Assembly: GCF_024502345.1 (NCBI RefSeq) | Contig: NZ_JALDNN010000001.1 | DNA length: 64,000 nucleotides | Strand: one strand, 5' to 3' | DNA from: Escherichia coli | GTDB lineage: Bacteria > Pseudomonadota > Gammaproteobacteria > Enterobacterales > Enterobacteriaceae | Shown: one piece after another, positions 4,456 through 56,530 of the stretch | Layout of the letters: the number at the start of each line of letters is the position of its first letter | Position numbering within the stretch: position 1 is the first letter of the stretch | Made by a program: the position numbers and the translations under genes | The notes under the pieces: generated by a model | What the model saw: only the letters and a program-made list of their open reading frames with translations | Databases searched by the model: none | What the model was told of the DNA's origin: nothing

Positions 4456-5889
4456 ATGAAAGTAACGCTGCCAGAGTTTGAACGTGCAGGAGTGATGGTG
4501 GTTGGTGATGTGATGCTGGATCGTTACTGGTACGGCCCCACCAGTCGTATCTCGCCGGAAGCGCCGGTGCCCGTGGTTAAAGTGAATACCATCGAAGAAC
4601 GTCCGGGCGGCGCGGCTAACGTGGCGATGAATATCGCTTCTCTCGGTGCTAATGCACGCCTGGTCGGGTTGACGGGCATTGACGATGCAGCGCGCGCGCT
4701 GAGTAAATCTCTGGCCGACGTCAACGTCAAATGCGACTTCGTTTCTGTACCGACGCATCCTACCATTACCAAATTACGGGTACTTTCCCGCAACCAACAG
4801 CTGATCCGTCTGGATTTTGAAGAAGGTTTCGAAGGTGTTGATCCGCAGCCGCTGCACGAGCGGATTAATCAGGCGCTGAGTTCGATTGGCGCGCTGGTGC
4901 TTTCTGACTACGCCAAAGGTGCGCTGGCAAGCGTACAGCAGATGATCCAACTGGCGCGTAAAGCGGGCGTTCCGGTGCTGATTGATCCAAAAGGTACCGA
5001 TTTTGAGCGCTACCGCGGCGCTACGCTGTTAACGCCGAATCTCTCGGAATTTGAAGCTGTTGTCGGTAAATGTAAGACCGAAGAAGAGATTGTTGAGCGC
5101 GGCATGAAACTGATTGCCGATTACGAACTCTCGGCTCTGTTAGTGACCCGTTCCGAACAGGGTATGTCGCTGCTGCAACCGGGTAAAGCGCCGCTGCATA
5201 TGCCAACCCAGGCGCAGGAAGTGTATGACGTTACCGGTGCGGGCGACACGGTGATTGGCGTCCTGGCGGCAACGCTGGCAGCGGGTAATTCGCTGGAAGA
5301 AGCCTGCTTCTTTGCCAATGCGGCGGCTGGTGTGGTGGTCGGCAAACTGGGGACGTCCACGGTTTCGCCGATCGAGCTGGAAAACGCTGTACGTGGACGC
5401 GCAGATACCGGCTTTGGCGTGATGACCGAAGAGGAACTGAAGCTGGCCGTAGCGGCAGCGCGTAAACGTGGTGAAAAAGTGGTAATGACCAACGGTGTCT
5501 TCGATATCCTACATGCCGGGCACGTCTCTTATCTGGCAAATGCCCGCAAGCTGGGTGACCGCTTGATTGTTGCCGTCAACAGCGATGCCTCCACCAAACG
5601 GCTGAAAGGGGATTCCCGCCCGGTAAACCCACTCGAACAGCGTATGATTGTGCTGGGCGCACTGGAAGCGGTCGACTGGGTAGTGTCGTTTGAAGAAGAT
5701 ACGCCGCAGCGCCTGATCGCCGGGATCCTGCCAGATCTGCTGGTGAAAGGTGGCGACTATAAACCAGAAGAGATTGCCGGGAGTAAAGAAGTCTGGGCCA
5801 ACGGCGGCGAAGTGCTGGTGCTCAACTTCGAAGACGGTTGCTCGACCACTAACATTATCAAGAAGATCCAACAGGATAAAAAAGGCTAA
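4456..5889 (+). CDS. hldE: Bifunctional D-beta-D-heptose 7-phosphate kinase / heptose 1-phosphate adenylyltransferase, 477 aa
   Basis: 477-aa ORF with SD AGGAGA upstream; recognised RfaE/HldE sequence; conserved position after glnE. Confidence 0.93.
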
Positions 5890-5969
5890 CCGGAAAGCGG
5901 GTCACAGATCTCGCTTCGTACCTAGCAGGCCTATTGACGCTGTTGCTTTTTCAACCTAGAGTAAAGGAA

Positions 5970-6112
5970 CAAGGGTAAGGGAGGATTTCTCCCCCCTCTG
6001 ATGAGTTGTTAGTAAGTCGGGAAACTTAACAGTAACAACACAACCAGTATGATGACGAGCTTCATCATAACCCTTTCCTTCTATAAGGCCCCTTCCTCGG
6101 GAGGGGCTTTCC
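5970..6112 (+). ncRNA. sibD: Sib-family antisense sRNA antitoxin (SibD/E-like), copy 1; ends approximate
   Basis: Putative promoter TTGACG-17bp-TAGAGT at 5934-5962; fully overlaps the antisense ibs ORF; 3' hairpin GCCCCUU...GAGGGGC + UUUCCCGUUUC at 6088-6118; ~143 nt fits known Sib length; D/E naming tentative. Confidence 0.6.
6009..6068 (-). CDS. ibsD: Ibs-family type I toxin, 19-aa hydrophobic peptide MMKLVIILVVLLLLSFPTY
   Basis: 60-nt minus-strand ORF translated by hand; close match to the Ibs toxin family (cf. IbsC MMRLVIILIVLLLISFSAY); D/E naming tentative. Confidence 0.65.
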   Translation of the reverse strand: MMKLVIILVVLLLLSFPTY

Positions 6113-6345
6113 CGTTTCAGCCCCTTGCTGACTCCCCGATTGTTGATGAGCGCCGGACCCCGCGCAACGCTTTCCCTGAAGCAGTTTTGCCTTCCCCGAG
6201 CGGTCACGCAAAACGCTGCAACGTCCTGAGCATTTGCACCTTTTAGCGGAACGCAGATATAAAAAATCCCCGGCTTTTTGGGCCAGGGATATGTGTTAAT
6301 GAAACCTTCTTGACGCTGATTTTTTTTCAACCTAAAGTAAAGGAA

Positions 6346-6488
6346 CAAGGGTAAGGGAGGATTTCTCCCCCCTCTGATTGGCTGTTAATAAGCTGCGAAA
6401 CTTACGAGTAACAACACAATCAGTATGATGACGAGCTTCATCATAACCCTTTCCTTATACAAGGCCCCTTCTTCGGGAGGGGCTTTCC
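6346..6488 (+). ncRNA. sibE: Sib-family antisense sRNA antitoxin (SibD/E-like), copy 2; ends approximate
   Basis: Promoter TTGACG-17bp-TAAAGT at 6310-6338; overlaps second ibs ORF; same 3' hairpin as copy 1. Confidence 0.6.
6385..6444 (-). CDS. ibsE: Ibs-family type I toxin, 19-aa peptide MMKLVIILIVLLLVSFAAY
   Basis: 60-nt minus-strand ORF in second repeat unit; differs from copy 1 at 4 residues. Confidence 0.65.
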   Translation of the reverse strand: MMKLVIILIVLLLVSFAAY

Positions 6489-6633
6489 CGTTTCAGCCCC
6501 TTGCTGACTCCCCGATTGTTGATGAGCGCCGGACCCCGCGCAACGCTTTCCCTGAGGTAGTTTTGCCTTCCCCGAGCGGTCACGCAAAATGCTGCAACAG
6601 CCCGATCATTTGCACTTTTTATCGGAACGCAGA

Positions 6634-6666
6634 TATAAAAAATCCCCGGCTTTTTGGGCCAGGGAT
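6634..6666 (-). terminator. Rho-independent terminator downstream of yqiK (minus strand); a homologous copy lies at 6258-6290
   Basis: Minus-strand RNA AUCCCUGGC-CCAAAAA-GCCGGGGAU followed by UUUUUUAU; 9-bp stem with one G-U pair. Confidence 0.6.
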
Positions 6667-9803: not shown

Positions 9804-9925
9804 TGTAGTTTCCCTGTACTGATAGGTGTTGAGTGCCATTGTAGTGCGATAAGGGTAAGTCATAAACCAGAATTATGTGAAGCTATGCGTTGCTGCCGCT
9901 AATCATTAGCGTTATAGTGAATCCG

Positions 9926-10176
9926 CTTATTCTCAGGGCGGGGCGAAATTCCCCACCGGCGGTAAATCAACTCAGTTGAAAGCCCGCGAGCGCTTTGGGT
10001 GCGAACTCAAAGGACAGCAGATCCGGTGTAATTCCGGGGCCGACGGTTAGAGTCCGGATGGGAGAGAGTAACGATTCTGTCGGGCATGGACCCGCTCACG
10101 TTATTTTGGCTATATGCCGCCACTCCTAAGACTGCCCTGATTCTGGTAACCATAATTTTAGTGAGGTTTTTTTACC
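9926..10176 (+). promoter_or_regulatory. FMN riboswitch (RFN element) in the ribB 5' leader
   Basis: Conserved RFN core CAGGGCGGGGCGAAAUUCCCCACCGGCGGUAAA ... AUCCGGUGUAAUUCCGGGGCCGACGGUUAGAGUCCGGAUGGGAGAGAGUAACG; putative -10 TATAGT at 9913-9918. Confidence 0.88.
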
Positions 10177-29742: not shown

Positions 29743-31155
29743 ATGTCACTCAGTCGGCGTCAGTTCATTCAGGCATCGGGGATTGCACTTTGTGCAGGCG
29801 CTGTTCCCCTGAAGGCCAGCGCAGCCGGGCAACAGCAACCGCTACCCGTTCCGCCGCTACTTGAATCTCGCCGTGGGCAACCGCTGTTTATGACTGTACA
29901 ACGTGCGCACTGGTCATTTACGCCAGGGACACGCGCGTCGGTCTGGGGAATCAATGGTCGTTACCTGGGGCCGACTATCCGCGTCTGGAAGGGCGACGAT
30001 GTTAAGCTTATTTACAGCAACCGCCTGACAGAAAATGTCTCAATGACGGTGGCCGGGCTACAGGTACCAGGCCCGCTGATGGGCGGTCCGGCACGGATGA
30101 TGTCGCCAAACGCTGACTGGGCACCCGTACTGCCTATTCGCCAGAACGCAGCTACTCTGTGGTATCACGCCAATACTCCCAACCGCACGGCTCAGCAGGT
30201 CTATAACGGCCTTGCCGGAATGTGGCTGGTGGAAGATGAAGTCAGCAAGTCGCTGCCTATCCCCAACCATTATGGTGTGGATGATTTTCCGGTCATTATC
30301 CAGGATAAACGGCTGGATAACTTTGGTACGCCAGAATACAACGAACCGGGAAGCGGCGGCTTTGTTGGTGATACGCTGCTGGTTAACGGTGTACAAAGCC
30401 CGTACGTTGAAGTCTCGCGTGGCTGGGTGCGCTTGCGACTGCTGAACGCGTCGAACTCTCGTCGCTATCAACTACAGATGAGCGATGGTCGCCCGTTACA
30501 TGTGATTTCTGGCGATCAGGGATTCCTGCCTGCTCCTGTATCGGTGAAGCAACTTTCGCTGGCACCGGGCGAGCGCCGCGAGATTCTGGTGGATATGAGC
30601 AACGGCGATGAAGTGTCGATCACCTGTGGCGAAGCGGCGAGCATTGTTGATCGTATTCGCGGCTTCTTTGAGCCATCCAGTATTCTGGTTTCTACCCTGG
30701 TGCTAACGCTGCGCCCAACCGGCCTTCTGCCGCTGGTCACAGACAGTCTTCCGATGCGCTTGCTGCCAACTGAAATCATGGCTGGTTCGCCAATTCGCAG
30801 TCGCGATATCAGTCTGGGTGATGACCCGGGTATTAATGGACAGCTGTGGGACGTCAACCGTATTGATGTCACCGCTCAGCAAGGAACGTGGGAACGCTGG
30901 ACGGTACGCGCGGACGAGCCGCAAGCGTTCCATATTGAAGGCGTAATGTTCCAGATCCGTAACGTGAATGGCGCGATGCCGTTCCCGGAAGACAGAGGCT
31001 GGAAAGATACCGTTTGGGTTGACGGACAAGTGGAGCTGCTTGTTTATTTCGGTCAGCCTTCCTGGGCGCACTTCCCGTTCTACTTCAACAGTCAGACGCT
31101 GGAAATGGCGGACCGTGGCTCGATTGGGCAACTGTTGGTCAATCCGGTACCGTAA
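29743..31155 (+). CDS. ftsP: Cell division protein FtsP (SufI), multicopper-oxidase fold, 470 aa
   Basis: Tat signal (SRRQFIQASG); recognised. Confidence 0.93.
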   Translation: MSLSRRQFIQASGIALCAGAVPLKASAAGQQQPLPVPPLLESRRGQPLFMTVQRAHWSFTPGTRASVWGINGRYLGPTIRVWKGDDVKLIYSNRLTENVSMTVAGLQVPGPLMGGPARMMSPNADWAPVLPIRQNAATLWYHANTPNRTAQQVYNGLAGMWLVEDEVSKSLPIPNHYGVDDFPVIIQDKRLDNFGTPEYNEPGSGGFVGDTLLVNGVQSPYVEVSRGWVRLRLLNASNSRRYQLQMSDGRPLHVISGDQGFLPAPVSVKQLSLAPGERREILVDMSNGDEVSITCGEAASIVDRIRGFFEPSSILVSTLVLTLRPTGLLPLVTDSLPMRLLPTEIMAGSPIRSRDISLGDDPGINGQLWDVNRIDVTAQQGTWERWTVRADEPQAFHIEGVMFQIRNVNGAMPFPEDRGWKDTVWVDGQVELLVYFGQPSWAHFPFYFNSQTLEMADRGSIGQLLVNPVP

Positions 31156-31205
31156 TGGACCAATTCATCGCCCCACAAAGTGGTGGGGCGATACAAGGAT
31201 GAATC

Positions 31206-32642
31206 ATGGATGGCATGGGATGGATGATTATTTTGGTACTTCCCTTTCTTTGGATGGGGTATGGACTGGCGTTGTTAATCATAATGGGGTGCGCTTTTGA
31301 ATCTAAGGGGATTCGTCGCGTTCTGCTATGGGGTGTTGCACCCCAGTTTATTATTCTTTGTATTACGACCTTATTGCTTTACTGGATTAACTCTCGGTTA
31401 ATTTATGTTTTTGTCTTTTTTCAGCCAGTTTTATGCATCACCACGGCAATTTTTTTGTTTGCTGGTAAAAAAACACAATATTCCAGATTGCTGTTTACTC
31501 TGTCTCATGTGATTTTTCTCGCTGGAGTTTTATATCAGGGGTATAGGGAAAATCTGCAATACATAATTAATAATGACTGGAAGGAATATAAAATAACGCG
31601 TTTATTTGAGCAAGTGCAGGACAATGGGGCGCATGCGCTGAAAAACGATGTAACTTGTTCAGAATTAATGCAACTACTTACACTGGCAGCGGAACGTGAT
31701 GACGTCAAAGAAGAGACGTTACGTACTCTTATTGCAAAGAGAGTATCGCCATTTCTGACAATGTCAGATAATTGTACGGGTGAGAATTCAGTAGAGATTT
31801 ATTCTGTATATACTACGCCTTTTATGGCGGCTATTCAAAATCATAATATACATTCTGTCCGTTTTTTTAGTCAATTGCTTATGGGAAACTCACCAAAAGC
31901 AAAAAATAATCGTGACATTGTGCGCCGGGCAAACCCTTTGATCGAAGTGTATAAATATAGTCATGGTTCAAAAAAACAACGTAAATCAGGGTTAGAAATA
32001 AGTAAGCAATTTATGGCTATTATGCCAGAACTATTAACAGATGCCGTCTGGCGTGCCGTGCTCAATGTATATGATGCCGATGCAGCACGATGGTTCTGGC
32101 GTAAGCAACCACCAGAAAATCGGTTGTATCGCTTAAAGGCTATGGCATTAATACCACAAACGGATGCGCTGTTGGCGGATATTCGACAAACTCCAGAGGT
32201 ACTGAATATCTCGTCTGAGAGTGATCCGAATGAAGAGGAGTTTCTCCATTTCTTAATTAATGGGGGCGATATCACTGTAATACATGCACTGGTTGAAAAA
32301 GGAATAGTTAACTGGCAGCACCTTATGAACATTGAGGGGTTTGATAAGGACCCCCTAATTTGGGCTATTTCAAAGCTGGGAGAAACTGACAATGACCGGG
32401 AGGTTTTGGCATTAATTATTCATGATATTAATGCGCAAAACGCACTGCCGGAGGATCGCATTGCCAAATATTTAACGCGGACGGGATCAATGGGCGATAT
32501 TTTTTTAAAAGCGGGCTTACATTGTGATAAGTTATATTCGGCAATTGAGTCCGACAAAAAGCGAAATAATGGTATGTATAGTCAAAACGCCAGGGAAGAA
32601 GTGGATCGCGTATGTACTCCGGTGATGCTGCCAACTTACTGA
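31206..32642 (+). CDS. Hypothetical membrane-anchored protein, paralog A (~474 aa natively): 4 predicted N-terminal TM helices + C-terminal domain with ankyrin-like repeat motifs; last codons supplied by IS1
   Basis: ATG with SD AAGGA 6 nt upstream; AT-rich; hydrophobic segments at ~5-29, 39-60, 65-87, 94-111; motifs such as TTPFMAAIQNHNIHSVRFFSQLL resemble ankyrin consensus; not recognised as any K-12 gene. Confidence 0.7.
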   Translation: MDGMGWMIILVLPFLWMGYGLALLIIMGCAFESKGIRRVLLWGVAPQFIILCITTLLLYWINSRLIYVFVFFQPVLCITTAIFLFAGKKTQYSRLLFTLSHVIFLAGVLYQGYRENLQYIINNDWKEYKITRLFEQVQDNGAHALKNDVTCSELMQLLTLAAERDDVKEETLRTLIAKRVSPFLTMSDNCTGENSVEIYSVYTTPFMAAIQNHNIHSVRFFSQLLMGNSPKAKNNRDIVRRANPLIEVYKYSHGSKKQRKSGLEISKQFMAIMPELLTDAVWRAVLNVYDADAARWFWRKQPPENRLYRLKAMALIPQTDALLADIRQTPEVLNISSESDPNEEEFLHFLINGGDITVIHALVEKGIVNWQHLMNIEGFDKDPLIWAISKLGETDNDREVLALIIHDINAQNALPEDRIAKYLTRTGSMGDIFLKAGLHCDKLYSAIESDKKRNNGMYSQNAREEVDRVCTPVMLPTY

Positions 32643-32675
32643 TTTAGTGTATGATGGTGTTTTTGAGGTGCTCCA

Positions 32676-32951
32676 GTGGCTTCTGTTTCTATCAGCTGTC
32701 CCTCCTGTTCAGCTACTGACGGGGTGGTGCGTAACGGCAAAAGCACCGCCGGACATCAGCGCTATCTCTGCTCTCACTGCCGTAAAACATGGCAACTGCA
32801 GTTCACTTACACCGCTTCTCAACCCGGTACGCACCAGAAAATCATTGATATGGCCATGAATGGCGTTGGATGCCGGGCAACCGCCCGCATTATGGGCGTT
32901 GGCCTCAACACGATTTTCCGCCATTTAAAAAACTCAGGCCGCAGTCGGTAA
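32676..32951 (+). CDS. insA: IS1 InsA, 91 aa
   Basis: Recognised sequence [43 protein letters not shown]... Confidence 0.95.
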
Positions 32952-33373
32952 CCTCGCGCATACAGCCGGGCAGTGACGTCATCGTCTGCGCGGAAATGGA
33001 CGAACAGTGGGGATACGTCGGGGCTAAATCGCGCCAGCGCTGGCTGTTTTACGCGTATGACAGGCTCCGGAAGACGGTTGTTGCGCACGTATTCGGTGAA
33101 CGCACTATGGCGACGCTGGGGCGTCTTATGAGCCTGCTGTCACCCTTTGACGTGGTGATATGGATGACGGATGGCTGGCCGCTGTATGAATCCCGCCTGA
33201 AGGGAAAGCTGCACGTAATCAGCAAGCGATATACGCAGCGAATTGAGCGGCATAACCTGAATCTGAGGCAGCACCTGGCACGGCTGGGACGGAAGTCGCT
33301 GTCGTTCTCAAAATCGGTGGAGCTGCATGACAAAGTCATCGGGCATTATCTGAACATAAAACACTATCAATAA
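32870..33373 (+). CDS. insB: IS1 InsB' frame (InsAB' transposase made by -1 frameshift from insA)
   Basis: Overlapping -1 frame ORF inside IS1; recognised. Confidence 0.9.
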
Positions 33374-33451
33374 GTTGGAGTCATTACCTGTACTCCCGCA
33401 AAATAGGTGCAGTTTGGCGCGGTTAAGGAATAAAAAATAAAGGACTAAGCC

Positions 33452-34862
33452 ATGCGTAACGATGAACTTCTTCACCATTTTACTTTTACATTGCTTATGT
33501 TGGGTGGCTATCTACTGACTCTGTTCATCGTTATCGTCCTTTCCTTTTTTCGCCCACTATGCCGAAAAATGGTCTTCCATGGCATATTGCCACAATTGAT
33601 GATGTCGCTAATGGTGTCGCTCGGTTTATATTATCTGGAACGATACTCTATTGCGGTATGGGCCTTACTGGATTCTGTTTGGATATTATTCCCTTGCCTG
33701 TTATTGATCATAGTGATAAATAAATGGTCAAAACGTTCCCTTGTATGGATGAGTGCTTGTCATATTATGTGCTTGCTGTTGTTACTCTGGCAGGTGCAGC
33801 CCACGTTATTTAAAATCAGCTTTTATCACCAACAATTAAGTCACCTGGCTCAGGCAGAACAGGAAAATTTCCGCACACTGGATGCGATTCACGATACGCA
33901 ACGTCTGGAAGAGATGTTGCTGGTAGCGTTGAAATCCCCGGAAAATAAAACCTCTGAAAATGCCTTTCGCTATCTGTCAGGGCGAATCTCACCATTTGCT
34001 ATACCTTCCATTGGCGATCAAAAGTATTCTACCCGCACTTTTTTTACGATTGCGTTGGAACATTACAACGCCCGCGCCATCCGCGCGTTTAGCCGCTTTC
34101 TGCAAGGAAATTCCTCAAAAGCGCAGGAATATCGCGCGATTGTTCATCAAAACAATCCACTGCAGCAGATGTACCGGGGAATAAGTTTGCCAATTCGTTT
34201 TAGTGAAGAAGAGATCGCCCGCCACATTGTTGCCGCTCGCGAGATAAGCCTCACCTTACTGCCCCTGATGCCAGAATTATTAAGCGAAGAGGCGTATGCA
34301 AATGTCATTGATGCTTATGACAGCGCAACGCTGAAGGCTTTTTGGCAGATCCAGCTGCCCGCCCACGCCGGTTTTACGCCTGGAAGCGATGTCGGTAATT
34401 CCTATGACAGCGGCACTCGTTCAACAGGTGAGGGAGTCACCAAAGCGGCTTGAACTGAAAGATAAAAGTGGCAGGACAGTACTAACTTACATCGTGCGCT
34501 TTGGAAATATTGCCGCAGTACAGGCACTGATTGACGCTAATCTGATCGACTGGCAACGGCTTCGCCAATCGACAGAAAGGTCAACACCATTATTACTGGC
34601 CACCTGGCGACAAAAATACGACGATGATCATGTAATCTTCCCATTGATTTTAAAGGACATTCTGGCAAAAAATACACCACCGTCGGCAGAGGAAATAATG
34701 AACTGCATCAAGGATGGTATGACCGCAGATGATTTTTTATCTGCCGGAATGAGCAACACGCAATTCTGTTCTGCGATTGAACAAAGCCTCCAGGCGAAAA
34801 CGTCAGTATTACCGGCGAATCGATTACGCCATCTGCAATCCTCGCTGTGTGCAAAGCTGTAA
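33452..34862 (+). pseudogene. Paralog B of the membrane-anchored ankyrin-like protein, split by a frameshift near 34350-34370 into ORFs 33452..34453 and 34389..34862
   Basis: Good RBS (AAGGA-7nt-ATG); N-terminal TM helices; aligns with paralog A across the frame switch (A: FWRKQPPENRLYRLKAMALIP; B frame1 FWQIQLP, frame2 PPTPVLRLEAMSVIP). Confidence 0.6.
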
Positions 34863-39499: not shown

Positions 39500-39603
39500 A
39501 CGTTCCTCCTTTATATGAACTCACCGGAGCAGGCTCCGGTGAGGTGTTGTGAACTTAAGTCTGGACGAAATGCCCGAAAACGAAAGTTTGAGGCGTAAAA
39601 AGC

Positions 39604-45313: not shown

Positions 45314-45525
45314 GCCTGATGCGCTACGCTCATCAGGCCTACAAAATCTATTGCAACATGTTGAATCTTCGTGCGTTTGTAGGCCGGATAAGGCGTTCAC
45401 GACGCATCCGGCATTAGGTGCTCAATGCCTGATGCGCTACGCTTATCAGGCCTACAAAATCTATTGCAACATGTTGAATCTTCATGCGTTTGTAGGCGGA
45501 TAAGGCGTTTTCGCCACATCAGGTA
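45314..45525. repeat. BIME: two tandem ~113-bp units each containing a pair of inverted REP elements
   Basis: GCCTGATGCGCTACGCTTATCAGGCCTACA and TGTAGGCCGGATAAGGCG...CATCCGGCA motifs, duplicated at 45314 and 45427. Confidence 0.85.
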
Positions 45526-56414: not shown

Positions 56415-56530
56415 AGCTTTCGTAGGCCTGATAAGACGCGGCAGCGTCGCATCAGGCATTGTGCTCGATTGCCGGATGCGGCGTGAACGCCTTATCCGGC
56501 CTGGATGGCTTGCTGCGACGAACGCTAACC
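56415..56530. repeat. REP elements between hybG and yghU
   Basis: GTAGGCCTGATAAGACGCG...CGCATCAGGC and TGCCGGATGCGGCGTGAACGCCTTATCCGGCCT. Confidence 0.8.

What the first reader, a model, noticed from the sequence alone, without database searches (positions are those of the whole stretch)
5995..6430. Divergence between the two Sib/Ibs copies is concentrated in the antisense-pairing segment
Most of the repeat unit is nearly identical between copies, but the ~35 nt covering the 3' part of the ibs ORF is much more divergent (GATGAGTTGTTAGTAAGTCGGGAAACTTAACAG versus GATTGGCTGTTAATAAGCTGCGAAACTTACGAG), giving the PTY versus AAY toxin C-termini. This pattern is what would be expected if each Sib RNA discriminates its own ibs mRNA through a short recognition region, keeping the two modules orthogonal despite the duplication.
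Basis: partly seen in the sequence, partly recalled or inferred. Interest (0 to 1): 0.4.

Follow-up and report, generated by a model that had tools for sequence, protein, structure and literature searches.

The report
Known SibD/SibE antitoxin specificity region
The two repeats are the well-known tandem SibE/ibsE and SibD/ibsD toxin-antitoxin modules of E. coli, and the divergent patch between them is centred on the loop that a 2010 study showed lets each antitoxin RNA recognise only its own toxin mRNA, so the finding is correct but already known.

Summary
Over the 357-nt repeat register (5934-6290 vs 6310-6666) the copies differ at 26 sites, and 9 of these lie in 5995-6030 (75% identity against about 95% elsewhere; scan-statistic p about 0.006).

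The locus is hldE-sibE/ibsE-sibD/ibsD-yqiK of E. coli: two Rfam SIB_RNA hits, and Ibs peptides identical to RefSeq IbsE and IbsD.

Sib RNAs tell cognate from non-cognate ibs mRNAs through two variable domains, TRD1 (P5 loop, target inside the ORF) and TRD2 (J1/7, target at the translation start).
- Five of the nine differences fall in the TRD1 equivalent (6015-6037).
- Four lie 5' of it, in the ibs 3'UTR and a synonymous Tyr codon.

New here: the E and D types of this segment are conserved between E. coli and E. albertii (0-3 differences), whereas flanks diverge more between orthologs than between paralogs. This points to gene conversion around an old specificity island. TRD1 and TRD2 types are shuffled among E. 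coli genomes.

Interest is low.

The parts
5934..5962 (+). Promoter of Sib copy 1 (-35 TTGACG, 17-nt spacer, -10 TAGAGT)
   Evidence: Promoter scan. It lies just upstream of the Sib 5' end as annotated in K-12.
5969..6112 (+). Sib RNA copy 1. Positional SibE, next to hldE.
   Evidence: Rfam SIB_RNA at 140.4 bits. Ends taken from alignment to K-12 sibE b4611. nhmmer hit.
6009..6068 (-). ibsE toxin ORF, MMKLVIILVVLLLLSFPTY. The stop codon is at 6009-6011.
   Evidence: Translation. The nearest genome (FDAARGOS_943) and K-12 annotate WP_010723221.1 IbsE at the same place.
6003..6030 (.). Divergent island 1 in copy 1. Nine sites differ from copy 2: 6003, 6004, 6006, 6012, 6017, 6018, 6020, 6029, 6030.
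6015..6037 (+). TRD1 equivalent of copy 1 (the P5 stem-loop). It holds 5 of the 9 differences.
   Evidence: Mapped from SibC +46..+68 of Han 2010 through the alignment. Unpaired loop predicted. Conserved outer stem with G-C/C-G covariation.
6068..6086 (+). TRD2 equivalent of copy 1 (the J1/7 single strand opposite the ibs Shine-Dalgarno and start region). It differs from copy 2 at 6081 and 6084.
   Evidence: Mapped from SibC +99..+115. Unpaired.
6087..6112 (+). Sib copy 1 terminator hairpin. There is a loop difference at 6096.
   Evidence: Fold. Consensus structure.
6139..6167 (-). Inferred ibsE promoter (-10 AACAAT at 6139-6144, -35 TTGCGC at 6162-6167). The transcription start would be near 6130.
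   Evidence: Inference. Han 2010 reports an 18-nt 5' overhang of the ibsC mRNA beyond the SibC 3' end, and I assumed the same offset here on the sequence read. The site was not flagged by the promoter scan.
6214..6246 (.). Divergent island 2 in copy 1 (7 differences in 33 nt), upstream of the inferred ibs promoter.
   Evidence: It is specific to each paralog: window copy 1 equals K-12 E over 6201-6250.
6266..6290 (-). Terminator-like hairpin plus T-run. It is a duplicate of the one after yqiK and marks the end of the repeat unit.
6310..6338 (+). Promoter of Sib copy 2 (-35 TTGACG, 17-nt spacer, -10 TAAAGT)
6345..6488 (+). Sib RNA copy 2. Positional SibD, next to yqiK.
   Evidence: Rfam SIB_RNA at 150.8 bits. 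Alignment to K-12 sibD b4447.
6385..6444 (-). ibsD toxin ORF, MMKLVIILIVLLLVSFAAY
   Evidence: Translation. WP_001387081.1 is annotated at this place in E. coli genomes.
6391..6413 (+). TRD1 equivalent of copy 2
   Evidence: Offset of 376 nt from copy 1.
6444..6462 (+). TRD2 equivalent of copy 2. It carries CTTATACAAGG, which in K-12 is the SibE type.
6590..6622 (.). Divergent island 2 in copy 2
6642..6666 (-). Terminator-like hairpin downstream of yqiK. This is the original of the duplicated hairpin.
   Evidence: yqiK is annotated immediately beyond it.

Best explanation
**What it is.** The region holds the two tandem type I toxin-antitoxin modules sibE/ibsE and sibD/ibsD of E. coli, between hldE and yqiK. 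Each roughly 144-nt Sib RNA is transcribed opposite a 19-codon ibs toxin gene and is fully complementary to it.

**How it works.** Productive pairing does not start anywhere along that complementarity. It starts at two exposed elements:
- the apical P5 loop (TRD1), whose target is the 3' part of the ibs ORF;
- the single-stranded J1/7 (TRD2), whose target is the ibs ribosome-binding region.

The D and E copies differ mainly in and just 5' of TRD1, and at two bases of TRD2. Each Sib therefore makes a fast loop-loop contact only with its own mRNA. This is the published mechanism.

- The E-type and D-type versions of the segment are old and each is held nearly constant. They are shared by E. coli and E. 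albertii.
- The surrounding repeat (Sib 5' part, the ibs leader and promoter region, TRD2 and the terminator) is repeatedly exchanged between copies by gene conversion or recombination.
- The sharp contrast seen in this window is therefore an old specificity island inside recently homogenised flanks.

**Shown versus inferred.**
- Shown here: locus identity, clustering, loop location, energy gaps, and ortholog/paralog distances.
- Taken from the literature: TRD function and cognate-only repression.
- Inferred: that selection for orthogonality is what preserves the island.
For: - **Identity:** Rfam SIB_RNA at 150.8 and 140.4 bits against a gathering score of 56. Synteny and RefSeq IbsE/Ibs annotation. 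Ibs peptides.
- **Clustering:**
- **Mechanism in the literature:** Han 2010, PMC2943612.
- **Mapping:** five differences fall in the TRD1 equivalent and two in TRD2.
- **Exposure:** variable bases are unpaired in the MFE and partition-function folds of both RNAs. None of the 13 Sib differences falls in a consensus-paired column (58 of 145 positions paired; p about 0.001).
- **Energies:** TRD1 -37.6/-39.2 cognate against -19.4/-17.5 non-cognate. TRD2 about -28 against -20 to -22 kcal/mol.
- **Old island with converted flanks:** in 5995-6030 paralogs differ at 9 (window), 9 (K-12) and 8 (E. albertii) sites. Orthologs differ at 0 and 0 (window against K-12) and at 0 and 3 (K-12 against E. albertii). 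In 6101-6250 the orthologs K-12/E. albertii differ at 20-23 sites, but paralogs within a genome differ at only 9-15. Fisher odds ratio 8.4, p = 7e-4.
- **Mosaicism:** TRD2 types are swapped relative to K-12 and all four haplotypes are common in 5,426 E. coli genomes.
- **TRD1 always differs:** every sampled two-copy genome carries two different TRD1 types.
Against: - No experiment was done on these alleles.
- Four of the nine differences (6003, 6004, 6006, 6012) lie in the part of Sib (+1..+48 in SibC numbering) that Han et al. found not to be involved in target recognition. The island is therefore wider than the functional element.
- Sib and ibs share one DNA duplex, so any mutation or conversion keeps a module self-complementary. 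Orthogonality then arises automatically from any divergence, and it is unclear what fitness cost a conversion of TRD1 would carry. Han et al. themselves say the reason for cognate-only control is unknown.
- Sequence divergence by itself can block recombination, which would preserve the island without selection.
- TRD2 is identical (E1V33) or differs at 1 nt (O157:H7 Z903, SMN197SH3, EC052) between tandem copies in some genomes. Strict orthogonality is therefore not universal.
- The clustering statistic is not significant in E. albertii or E1V33.
- The ortholog/paralog counts rest on two species and are not independent.
Confidence: 0.8

Rival explanations
1. Constraint map only. The differences mark the few positions free to vary, because every other position is pinned by a Sib stem, the Sib promoter or terminator, the ibs Shine-Dalgarno and start, or the hydrophobic core of the toxin. 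On this view the cluster has no role in discrimination.
For: - None of the 13 Sib differences falls in a consensus-paired column.
- Across 43 Sib copies, every unpaired patch is variable, not just TRD1: 5997-6008, 6017-6022, 6056-6062, 6081-6087 and 6096.
Against: - The segment is not free to vary within a type. There are 0 differences between window and K-12 for both copies, and 0-3 between E. coli and E. albertii, while neighbouring DNA differs by 13-15%.
- The C-terminal residues of IbsC are reported to be required for toxicity (review PMC8309996 citing mutagenesis work).
- Han 2010 showed experimentally that these bases determine target choice.
Confidence: 0.08
2. Protein-level diversification. 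Selection acts on the toxin C-terminus (PTY versus AAY, plus L14V and V9I) to give the two Ibs peptides different targets or potency, and the RNA differences are a by-product.
For: - Four amino-acid differences, three of them in the last six residues.
- Natural alleles vary mostly at residues 17-18: PT, AA, QA, HA, AT.
- Han et al. mention possible distinct Ibs functions.
Against: - Within 6003-6030 only 3 of the 9 changes are non-synonymous. Three are synonymous (6012, 6018, 6030) and three lie in the 3'UTR (6003, 6004, 6006). Selection on the peptide alone would not cluster silent and untranslated changes in the same place.
- Coding and pairing are on the same bases, so the two effects cannot be separated from sequence.
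Confidence: 0.1
3. Neutral recombination barrier. The duplication is old and gene conversion homogenises the copies wherever identity is long enough. The divergent patch persists only because its mismatches stop conversion tracts, with no selection for orthogonality.
For: - Flanks show concerted evolution and mosaic TRD2 exchange.
- A second divergent island (6214-6246) lies outside either RNA's recognition elements.
- Conversion of TRD1 would not break self-complementarity, so no obvious cost exists.
Against: - The island is only about 28 nt with long identical flanks on both sides (34 and 36 nt perfect runs), so conversion tracts should cross it easily.
- Each type is strongly conserved across species, which implies selection on its sequence.
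- Experiments show the bases are functional.
Confidence: 0.15

Closest known systems
E. coli K-12 sibD/ibsD and sibE/ibsE (b4447/b4664 and b4611/b4666); Rfam RF00113 SIB_RNA, formerly the QUAD repeats
   Same: - Same locus (hldE-yqiK), same tandem arrangement and same 376-nt spacing.
- TRD1-region sequences identical to the K-12 E and D types.
- Ibs peptides at these positions annotated as WP_010723221.1 and WP_001387081.1 in K-12 and the nearest genome.

   Different: - The TRD2 and terminator-loop types are exchanged relative to K-12. Copy 1 has CTTCTATAAGG (like the K-12 D type) and copy 2 has CTTATACAAGG (the K-12 E type).
- 6101-6200 is nearly identical between the window's copies (2 differences) but differs at 9 sites in K-12.
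- Both window haplotypes are common E. coli alleles, found at >=99% in 1390 and 275 records.
TRD1/TRD2 target-recognition domains of SibC (Han et al. 2010, NAR 38:5851, PMC2943612)
   Same: - The variable bases lie in the P5 loop and in J1/7.
- Non-cognate pairing is interrupted there.
- The paper states that the TRDs are always in the variable regions for any pair of Sib RNAs.
   Different: - The experiments were on SibC and SibD, not on the D/E pair or on these alleles.
V1 region of OrzO/OrzP in the tandem zorO-orzO and zorP-orzP type I loci of E. coli O157:H7 (PMC3919570)
   Same: A tandemly duplicated type I toxin-antitoxin in which a 3-nt variable, single-stranded patch in the antitoxin sRNA decides which toxin mRNA is repressed. 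Swapping the patch swaps specificity.
   Different: - Orz sRNAs are divergently encoded and pair over only 18-19 nt in the 5'UTR.
- Sib is a full-length cis-antisense RNA with two recognition domains.
Kissing-loop antisense control (CopA/CopT, RNAI/RNAII, Sok/hok)
   Same: Recognition starts at exposed loops and then spreads. Small loop differences give incompatibility or specificity groups. This is background cited by Han 2010 and also my own knowledge.
   Different: - Those systems are plasmid-borne and control copy number or post-segregational killing.
- Here the modules are chromosomal tandem paralogs.

Membership tests
Sib antitoxin RNA (Rfam RF00113) | Match to the SIB_RNA covariance model above the gathering score, over its full length | tested here: met
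   Scores of 150.8 and 140.4 bits against a gathering score of 56, covering model positions 1-147 of 147.
Sib antitoxin RNA (Rfam RF00113) | Own sigma-70 promoter and intrinsic terminator giving an RNA of about 140 nt | tested here: met
   TTGACG-17-TAGAGT and TTGACG-17-TAAAGT promoters. GC-rich terminal hairpin followed by a U-run in the folds and consensus structure. Length of 144 nt by alignment to the K-12 annotation.
Ibs/Sib type I toxin-antitoxin module | An 18-19 codon hydrophobic ORF on the opposite strand, wholly inside the Sib transcript | tested here: met
   6009-6068 and 6385-6444 on the minus strand, 19 aa each. RefSeq annotates IbsE and an Ibs-family protein at the same positions.
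Ibs/Sib type I toxin-antitoxin module | Ibs overexpression is toxic and is repressed by the Sib RNA | not testable with these tools
   Reported for K-12 by Fozo 2008 as summarised in Han 2010. The Fozo paper itself was not held.
sibD/sibE locus of E. coli | Tandem pair between hldE and yqiK | tested here: met
   Matches in 5,425 of 5,426 E. coli genomes with hldE, ibsE, Ibs and yqiK annotated under the match. K-12 annotation.
TRD-based cognate discrimination (Han 2010) | Paralog differences located in the P5 loop (TRD1) and J1/7 (TRD2), both single-stranded | tested here: met
   Five differences in 6015-6037 and two in 6068-6086. These positions are unpaired. Four more differences lie just 5' of TRD1.
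TRD-based cognate discrimination (Han 2010) | Non-cognate pairing at the TRDs is clearly weaker than cognate pairing | tested here: met
   RNAduplex gives TRD1 -37.6/-39.2 against -19.4/-17.5, and TRD2 -28.3/-28.1 against -21.9/-20.2 kcal/mol. These are thermodynamic estimates only.
TRD-based cognate discrimination (Han 2010) | No cross-repression between these two modules in vivo | not testable with these tools
   Han 2010 summarises Fozo 2008 as finding cognate-only repression except for ibsA. This has not been verified for the window's TRD1/TRD2 combination.

The most novel reading that the evidence does not exclude
The hldE-yqiK ibs/sib locus may behave as a small cassette system.
- A handful of old TRD1 'specificity cassettes' are each kept nearly invariant across Escherichia species: E (SFPTY), D (SFAAY), Q (SFQAY) and an H type (SFHAY).
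- These cassettes are shuffled among positions and copy numbers by recombination.
- TRD2 and the flanks are freely exchanged.

If so, TRD1 alone carries natural orthogonality. In a sizeable fraction of E. coli the two modules would then cross-talk through TRD2. One example is O157:H7-like genomes, where SibD's CUGU pairs with the ibsE CUAU-type target through a G.U wobble at the same energy as the cognate pair. This population-level picture was not found in the literature searched.
Probability: 0.3. Interest if true: 0.4.

Novelty: already known. Interest (0 to 1): 0.15.

Why it matters
As stated, the finding re-derives from raw sequence a result published in 2010.

The extra observations made here are modest:
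- E and D recognition types conserved between species, inside flanks that undergo gene conversion;
- free reassortment of TRD1 and TRD2 types among E. coli strains;
- natural pairs whose TRD2 elements are identical or wobble-compatible.

They matter only in that they give a concrete, cheap test of an open question Han et al. left unanswered: why, and how strictly, each Ibs toxin needs its own antitoxin.

Tried and rejected
- **Fozo et al. 2008 and the Fozo/Hemm/Storz 2008 review.** I tried to read both for the direct SibD/SibE cross-tests. Neither is held, so that point rests on Han 2010's summary.
- **Supplementary Figure S10 of Han 2010** (pairwise variability of the Sib RNAs) is not held.
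- **Gene conversion at sibD/sibE in the literature.** A search returned nothing relevant.
- **Organism.** I asked whether the window might come from a non-coli Escherichia, because only one genome matched the 841-nt locus at >=99%. I rejected this. The ftsP region is 99.3% identical to many E. coli, and both Sib haplotypes occur at 100% in O157:H7 TR01 and Combat11I9.
- **ibsD start site from a primer.** I first took the pBAD primer of Han 2010 to mark the ibsD start (near 6153/6529). I rejected this after checking the ibsC primer against K-12. The mapped start is about 18 nt beyond the Sib 3' end, which places a weak -10/-35 at 6139-6167.
- **Whole-molecule cofold energies** favour the cognate pairs, but they are uninformative about discrimination. 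Han 2010 showed that annealed non-cognate RNAs also form duplexes.
- **Family-wide entropy** mixes deep A/B-type against C/D/E-type differences. Its largest peak (5997-6008) is partly an alignment-gap effect, so I did not use it as evidence for TRD1 specifically.
Full report
**1. What is at the coordinates**

The window carries a direct repeat with an ungapped offset of 376 nt (5934-6290 against 6310-6666). Rfam's SIB_RNA model (RF00113) matches both copies over its full length, at 140.4 and 150.8 bits against a gathering score of 56.

Upstream lies the end of hldE (+ strand, stop at 5887-5889). Downstream lies yqiK (- strand). The same arrangement, with ibsE and a second Ibs-family toxin annotated, is found in 5,425 of 5,426 complete E. 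coli genomes and in K-12 MG1655, where the RNAs are sibE (b4611) and sibD (b4447).

By position, copy 1 (5969-6112) is SibE and copy 2 (6345-6488) is SibD. The minus-strand ORFs 6009-6068 and 6385-6444 encode MMKLVIILVVLLLLSFPTY and MMKLVIILIVLLLVSFAAY. RefSeq annotates the proteins WP_010723221.1 and WP_001387081.1 at those places. Each Sib has a sigma-70-like promoter (TTGACG-17-TAGAGT and TTGACG-17-TAAAGT) and a terminator hairpin. The window is E. coli: the ftsP region is 99.3% identical to many strains.

**2. The observation**

Both quoted strings are present at 6000-6032 and 6376-6408. Over 357 aligned bases there are 26 mismatches (92.7% identity), distributed as follows.

| Segment | Mismatches | Identity |
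|---|---|---|
| 5934-5994 | 4 of 61 | 93% |
| 5995-6030 | 9 of 36 | 75% |
| 6031-6083 | 2 of 53 | 96% |
| 6084-6290 | 11 of 207 | 95% |

A permutation scan statistic gives p = 0.006 for a 30-nt window and 0.016-0.019 for 35- and 20-nt windows. A Fisher test of the segment against the rest gives p = 4e-4. The clustering is real, but four corrections apply.
- A second island at 6214-6246 has 7 mismatches in 33 nt (p = 6e-4 against the remainder).
- The ibs stop codon is at 6009-6011. Sites 6003, 6004 and 6006 are therefore in the 3'UTR, and 6012 is a synonymous Tyr change.
- Of the nine changes, three are non-synonymous, three synonymous and three untranslated.
- The whole Sib RNA is antisense to ibs, so the segment is better called the recognition loop than 'the pairing segment'.

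**3. What the literature already says**

Han et al. 2010 (PMC2943612) set out to explain why Sib RNAs, despite their high identity, repress only their cognate ibs mRNAs. The exception is ibsA, as reported by Fozo et al. 2008 and summarised. Their findings:
[quoted passage not shown] TRD1 is +46..+68, the P5 loop, with its target inside the ORF. TRD2 is +99..+115, the J1/7 single strand, with its target at the translation-initiation region.
- The TRD1 sequence alone is sufficient to repress, whereas TRD2 also needs a specific structure (the P1 stem).
- SibD neither binds nor represses ibsC unless the RNAs are denatured and annealed.
- Putting SibD's TRD1 or TRD2 into SibC makes it repress ibsD.

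An analogous case is the V1 patch of OrzO/OrzP in the tandem zor-orz loci (PMC3919570).

**4. Mapping onto the window**

I aligned the K-12 Sib RNAs with the window copies. TRD1 maps to 6015-6037 (copy 2: 6391-6413) and TRD2 to 6068-6086 (copy 2: 6444-6462).
- Five of the nine clustered differences (6017, 6018, 6020, 6029, 6030) are inside TRD1.
- Four are 5' of it, in the stretch (+1..+48 of SibC) that Han et al. found not to be involved in recognition.

Structure predictions agree with the published model.
- MFE and partition-function folds place the variable TRD1 bases in an apical loop of Sib and in a loop of the ibs mRNA, and place J1/7 in a single strand.
- The RNAalifold consensus of 30 Sib copies from Escherichia, Citrobacter, Salmonella, Kluyvera, Pseudocitrobacter and Phytobacter keeps P1, the outer P5 stem (with G-C/C-G covariation in 12 sequences), P6 and the terminator.
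- None of the 13 D/E differences inside Sib falls in a consensus-paired column (p about 0.001).

Duplex energies from RNAduplex are below. These are equilibrium estimates, and the real discrimination is kinetic.

| Element | Cognate (kcal/mol) | Non-cognate (kcal/mol) |
|---|---|---|
| TRD1 | -37.6 / -39.2 | -19.4 / -17.5 |
| TRD2 | -28.3 / -28.1 | -21.9 / -20.2 |

**5. Why the divergence looks concentrated**

I compared the 376-nt units of the window, K-12, FDAARGOS_943, E. albertii and Escherichia sp. E1V33.

| Comparison | Differences in 5995-6030 | Differences in 6101-6250 |
|---|---|---|
| Paralogs, window | 9 | 9 |
| Paralogs, K-12 | 9 | 15 |
| Paralogs, E. albertii | 8 | 14 |
| Orthologs, window vs K-12 (E copy / D copy) | 0 / 0 | 6 / 11 |
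| Orthologs, K-12 vs E. albertii (E copy / D copy) | 3 / 0 | 23 / 20 |

In the flank the orthologs K-12/E. albertii differ more (20-23 sites) than the paralogs within a genome do (9-15). A duplication older than the species split, which is what the TRD1 segment indicates, should give the opposite unless the flanks are being homogenised. The contrast is significant (odds ratio 8.4, p = 7e-4), with the caveat that the counts are not independent.

The window shows the effect strongly. Its two copies differ at only 2 sites in 6101-6200, against 9 in K-12. For the same reason the scan statistic is significant in E. coli pairs but not in E. albertii (p = 0.41) or E1V33 (p = 0.88).

The best description is an old recognition island, conserved within each type, sitting in flanks that undergo concerted evolution.

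**6. Mosaic TRD combinations**

Relative to K-12, the window's TRD2 and terminator-loop types are exchanged. Copy 1 has E-type TRD1 with CTTCTATAAGG, which is D-like. Copy 2 has D-type TRD1 with CTTATACAAGG, the K-12 E type. E. albertii shares the K-12 arrangement.

Haplotype probes of 131-132 nt against 5,426 E. coli genomes find all four combinations at >=99% identity.

| Haplotype | Records at >=99% |
|---|---|
| Window copy 1 | 1390 |
| Window copy 2 | 275 |
| K-12 sibE | 2056 |
| K-12 sibD | 1980 |

In eleven sampled E. coli loci, plus E. albertii and E1V33:
- TRD1 comes in types E (SFPTY), D (SFAAY) and Q (SFQAY), with ATY and HAY variants.
- Every two-copy genome carries two different TRD1 types.
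- TRD2 differs by 2-4 positions (2 in the window, FDAARGOS_943 and ET151; 3 in E. albertii and 17MR471; 3 substitutions plus a 1-nt insertion in K-12), by 1 (O157:H7 Z903, SMN197SH3, EC052) or by 0 (E1V33).
- In the 1-nt case, Sib with CUGU pairs with the CUAU-type target through a G.U wobble at -35.5 kcal/mol, equal to the cognate value. Since TRD2 can repress independently of TRD1, cross-talk is predicted in those strains. It is not predicted in this window (-35.5 against -24.8 and -29.1).
- Three genomes have a single module. One (17MR471) has the D type next to hldE and a Q type next to yqiK.

**7. Rivals**

- **Pure 'free-to-vary' map.** It fits the loop location. It is contradicted by the near-invariance of each type across species, by the reported need for the IbsC C-terminus for toxicity, and by the swap experiments.
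- **Selection on the peptide alone.** It does not explain why synonymous and 3'UTR changes cluster in the same place.
- **Neutral recombination barrier.** It cannot be excluded. Sib and ibs share one duplex, so conversion never breaks a module and the cost of losing orthogonality is unknown (Han et al. say so). However, the island is short and is flanked by perfect runs of 34 and 36 nt.

**8. The rest of the repeat**

- From Han et al.'s 18-nt ibsC mRNA overhang and the sequence, I infer an ibs start near 6130/6506 with a weak promoter (-10 AACAAT, -35 TTGCGC) at 6139-6167/6515-6543.
- Island 2 (6214-6246) then lies about 85-115 nt upstream of that start. It is paralog-specific: window copy 1 equals K-12 E over 6201-6250. 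This fits Han et al.'s unpublished remark that ibs promoters have different upstream factor sites.
- The unit ends with a terminator-like hairpin on the minus strand (6266-6290) that duplicates the one after yqiK (6642-6666).

**9. Verdict**

Novelty: already known. Interest: 0.15. The population-level details in sections 5 and 6 are small additions that suggest a cheap test of how strict natural Sib/ibs orthogonality is.

Noticed in passing
window 6068-6100 and 6444-6476: Relative to K-12 and E. albertii, the TRD2 and terminator-loop types of the two tandem Sib copies are exchanged. Copy 1 has E-type TRD1 with the D-like CTTCTATAAGG. Copy 2 has D-type TRD1 with the E-type CTTATACAAGG. All four TRD1/TRD2 haplotypes are common among 5,426 E. 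coli genomes, at 1390, 275, 2056 and 1980 records.
   Followed up: yes
window 6214-6246 and 6590-6622: A second paralog-specific divergent island (7 of 33 sites) lies about 85-115 nt upstream of the inferred ibs start. It is identical between window copy 1 and K-12 E. It may be differential promoter-upstream regulation of ibsE against ibsD.
   Followed up: partly
window 6266-6290 and 6642-6666 (minus strand): The repeat unit ends with an identical terminator-like hairpin plus T-run. The distal one follows yqiK, so the ancestral duplication apparently copied the yqiK terminator along with the module. The proximal one would end ibsD transcripts.
   Followed up: partly
L040, L041, L042 (E. coli S1-SRL-01-C, E302, RMDEC465): The locus is polymorphic in copy number. 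These genomes have a single Sib/ibs module between hldE and yqiK, each with a different TRD1/TRD2 combination. In addition, 968 of 5,426 genomes gave no match to the D-type probe.
   Followed up: partly
L036 (E. coli 17MR471) 412-560 and 788-935; L040: A third TRD1 and toxin type (loop GCCTGG, Ibs ending SFQAY) occurs at this locus. In 17MR471 the D-type module sits next to hldE and the Q-type next to yqiK, so module types are not tied to position. A similar Q type occurs in Escherichia sp. E1V33 (L024).
   Followed up: partly
L043 (O157:H7 Z903), L038, L039; L024 (E1V33): In these genomes the tandem copies' TRD2 elements differ by one base (CTAT against CTGT) or not at all. Sib with CUGU pairs with the CUAU-type target through a G.U wobble at the cognate energy (-35.5 kcal/mol). 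This predicts cross-repression through TRD2.
   Followed up: partly
window 6026-6053 (+): A strong promoter-like match (TTAACA-16-TATGAT, 10 of 12) lies inside Sib copy 1 only. The E-type TRD1 creates the -35-like hexamer. It could be chance, or an internal start giving a short 3' Sib fragment.
   Followed up: no
window 9925-10073 (+); 39538-39601 (-); 45382-45452 (+); 56425-56501 (both strands): Other Rfam hits above gathering score: an FMN riboswitch (120.9 bits), ES173 sRNA (99 bits) and naRNA4/CssrE elements (61-90 bits).
   Followed up: no
window 30000-34000: Only 2 of 5,426 E. coli genomes cover at least 80% of this 4-kb stretch next to ftsP. The best hit annotates an ankyrin-repeat protein and hypothetical proteins there. 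Part of the stretch matches up to 40 or more places per genome and many plasmids, so it probably includes an insertion sequence or another mobile element.
   Followed up: no
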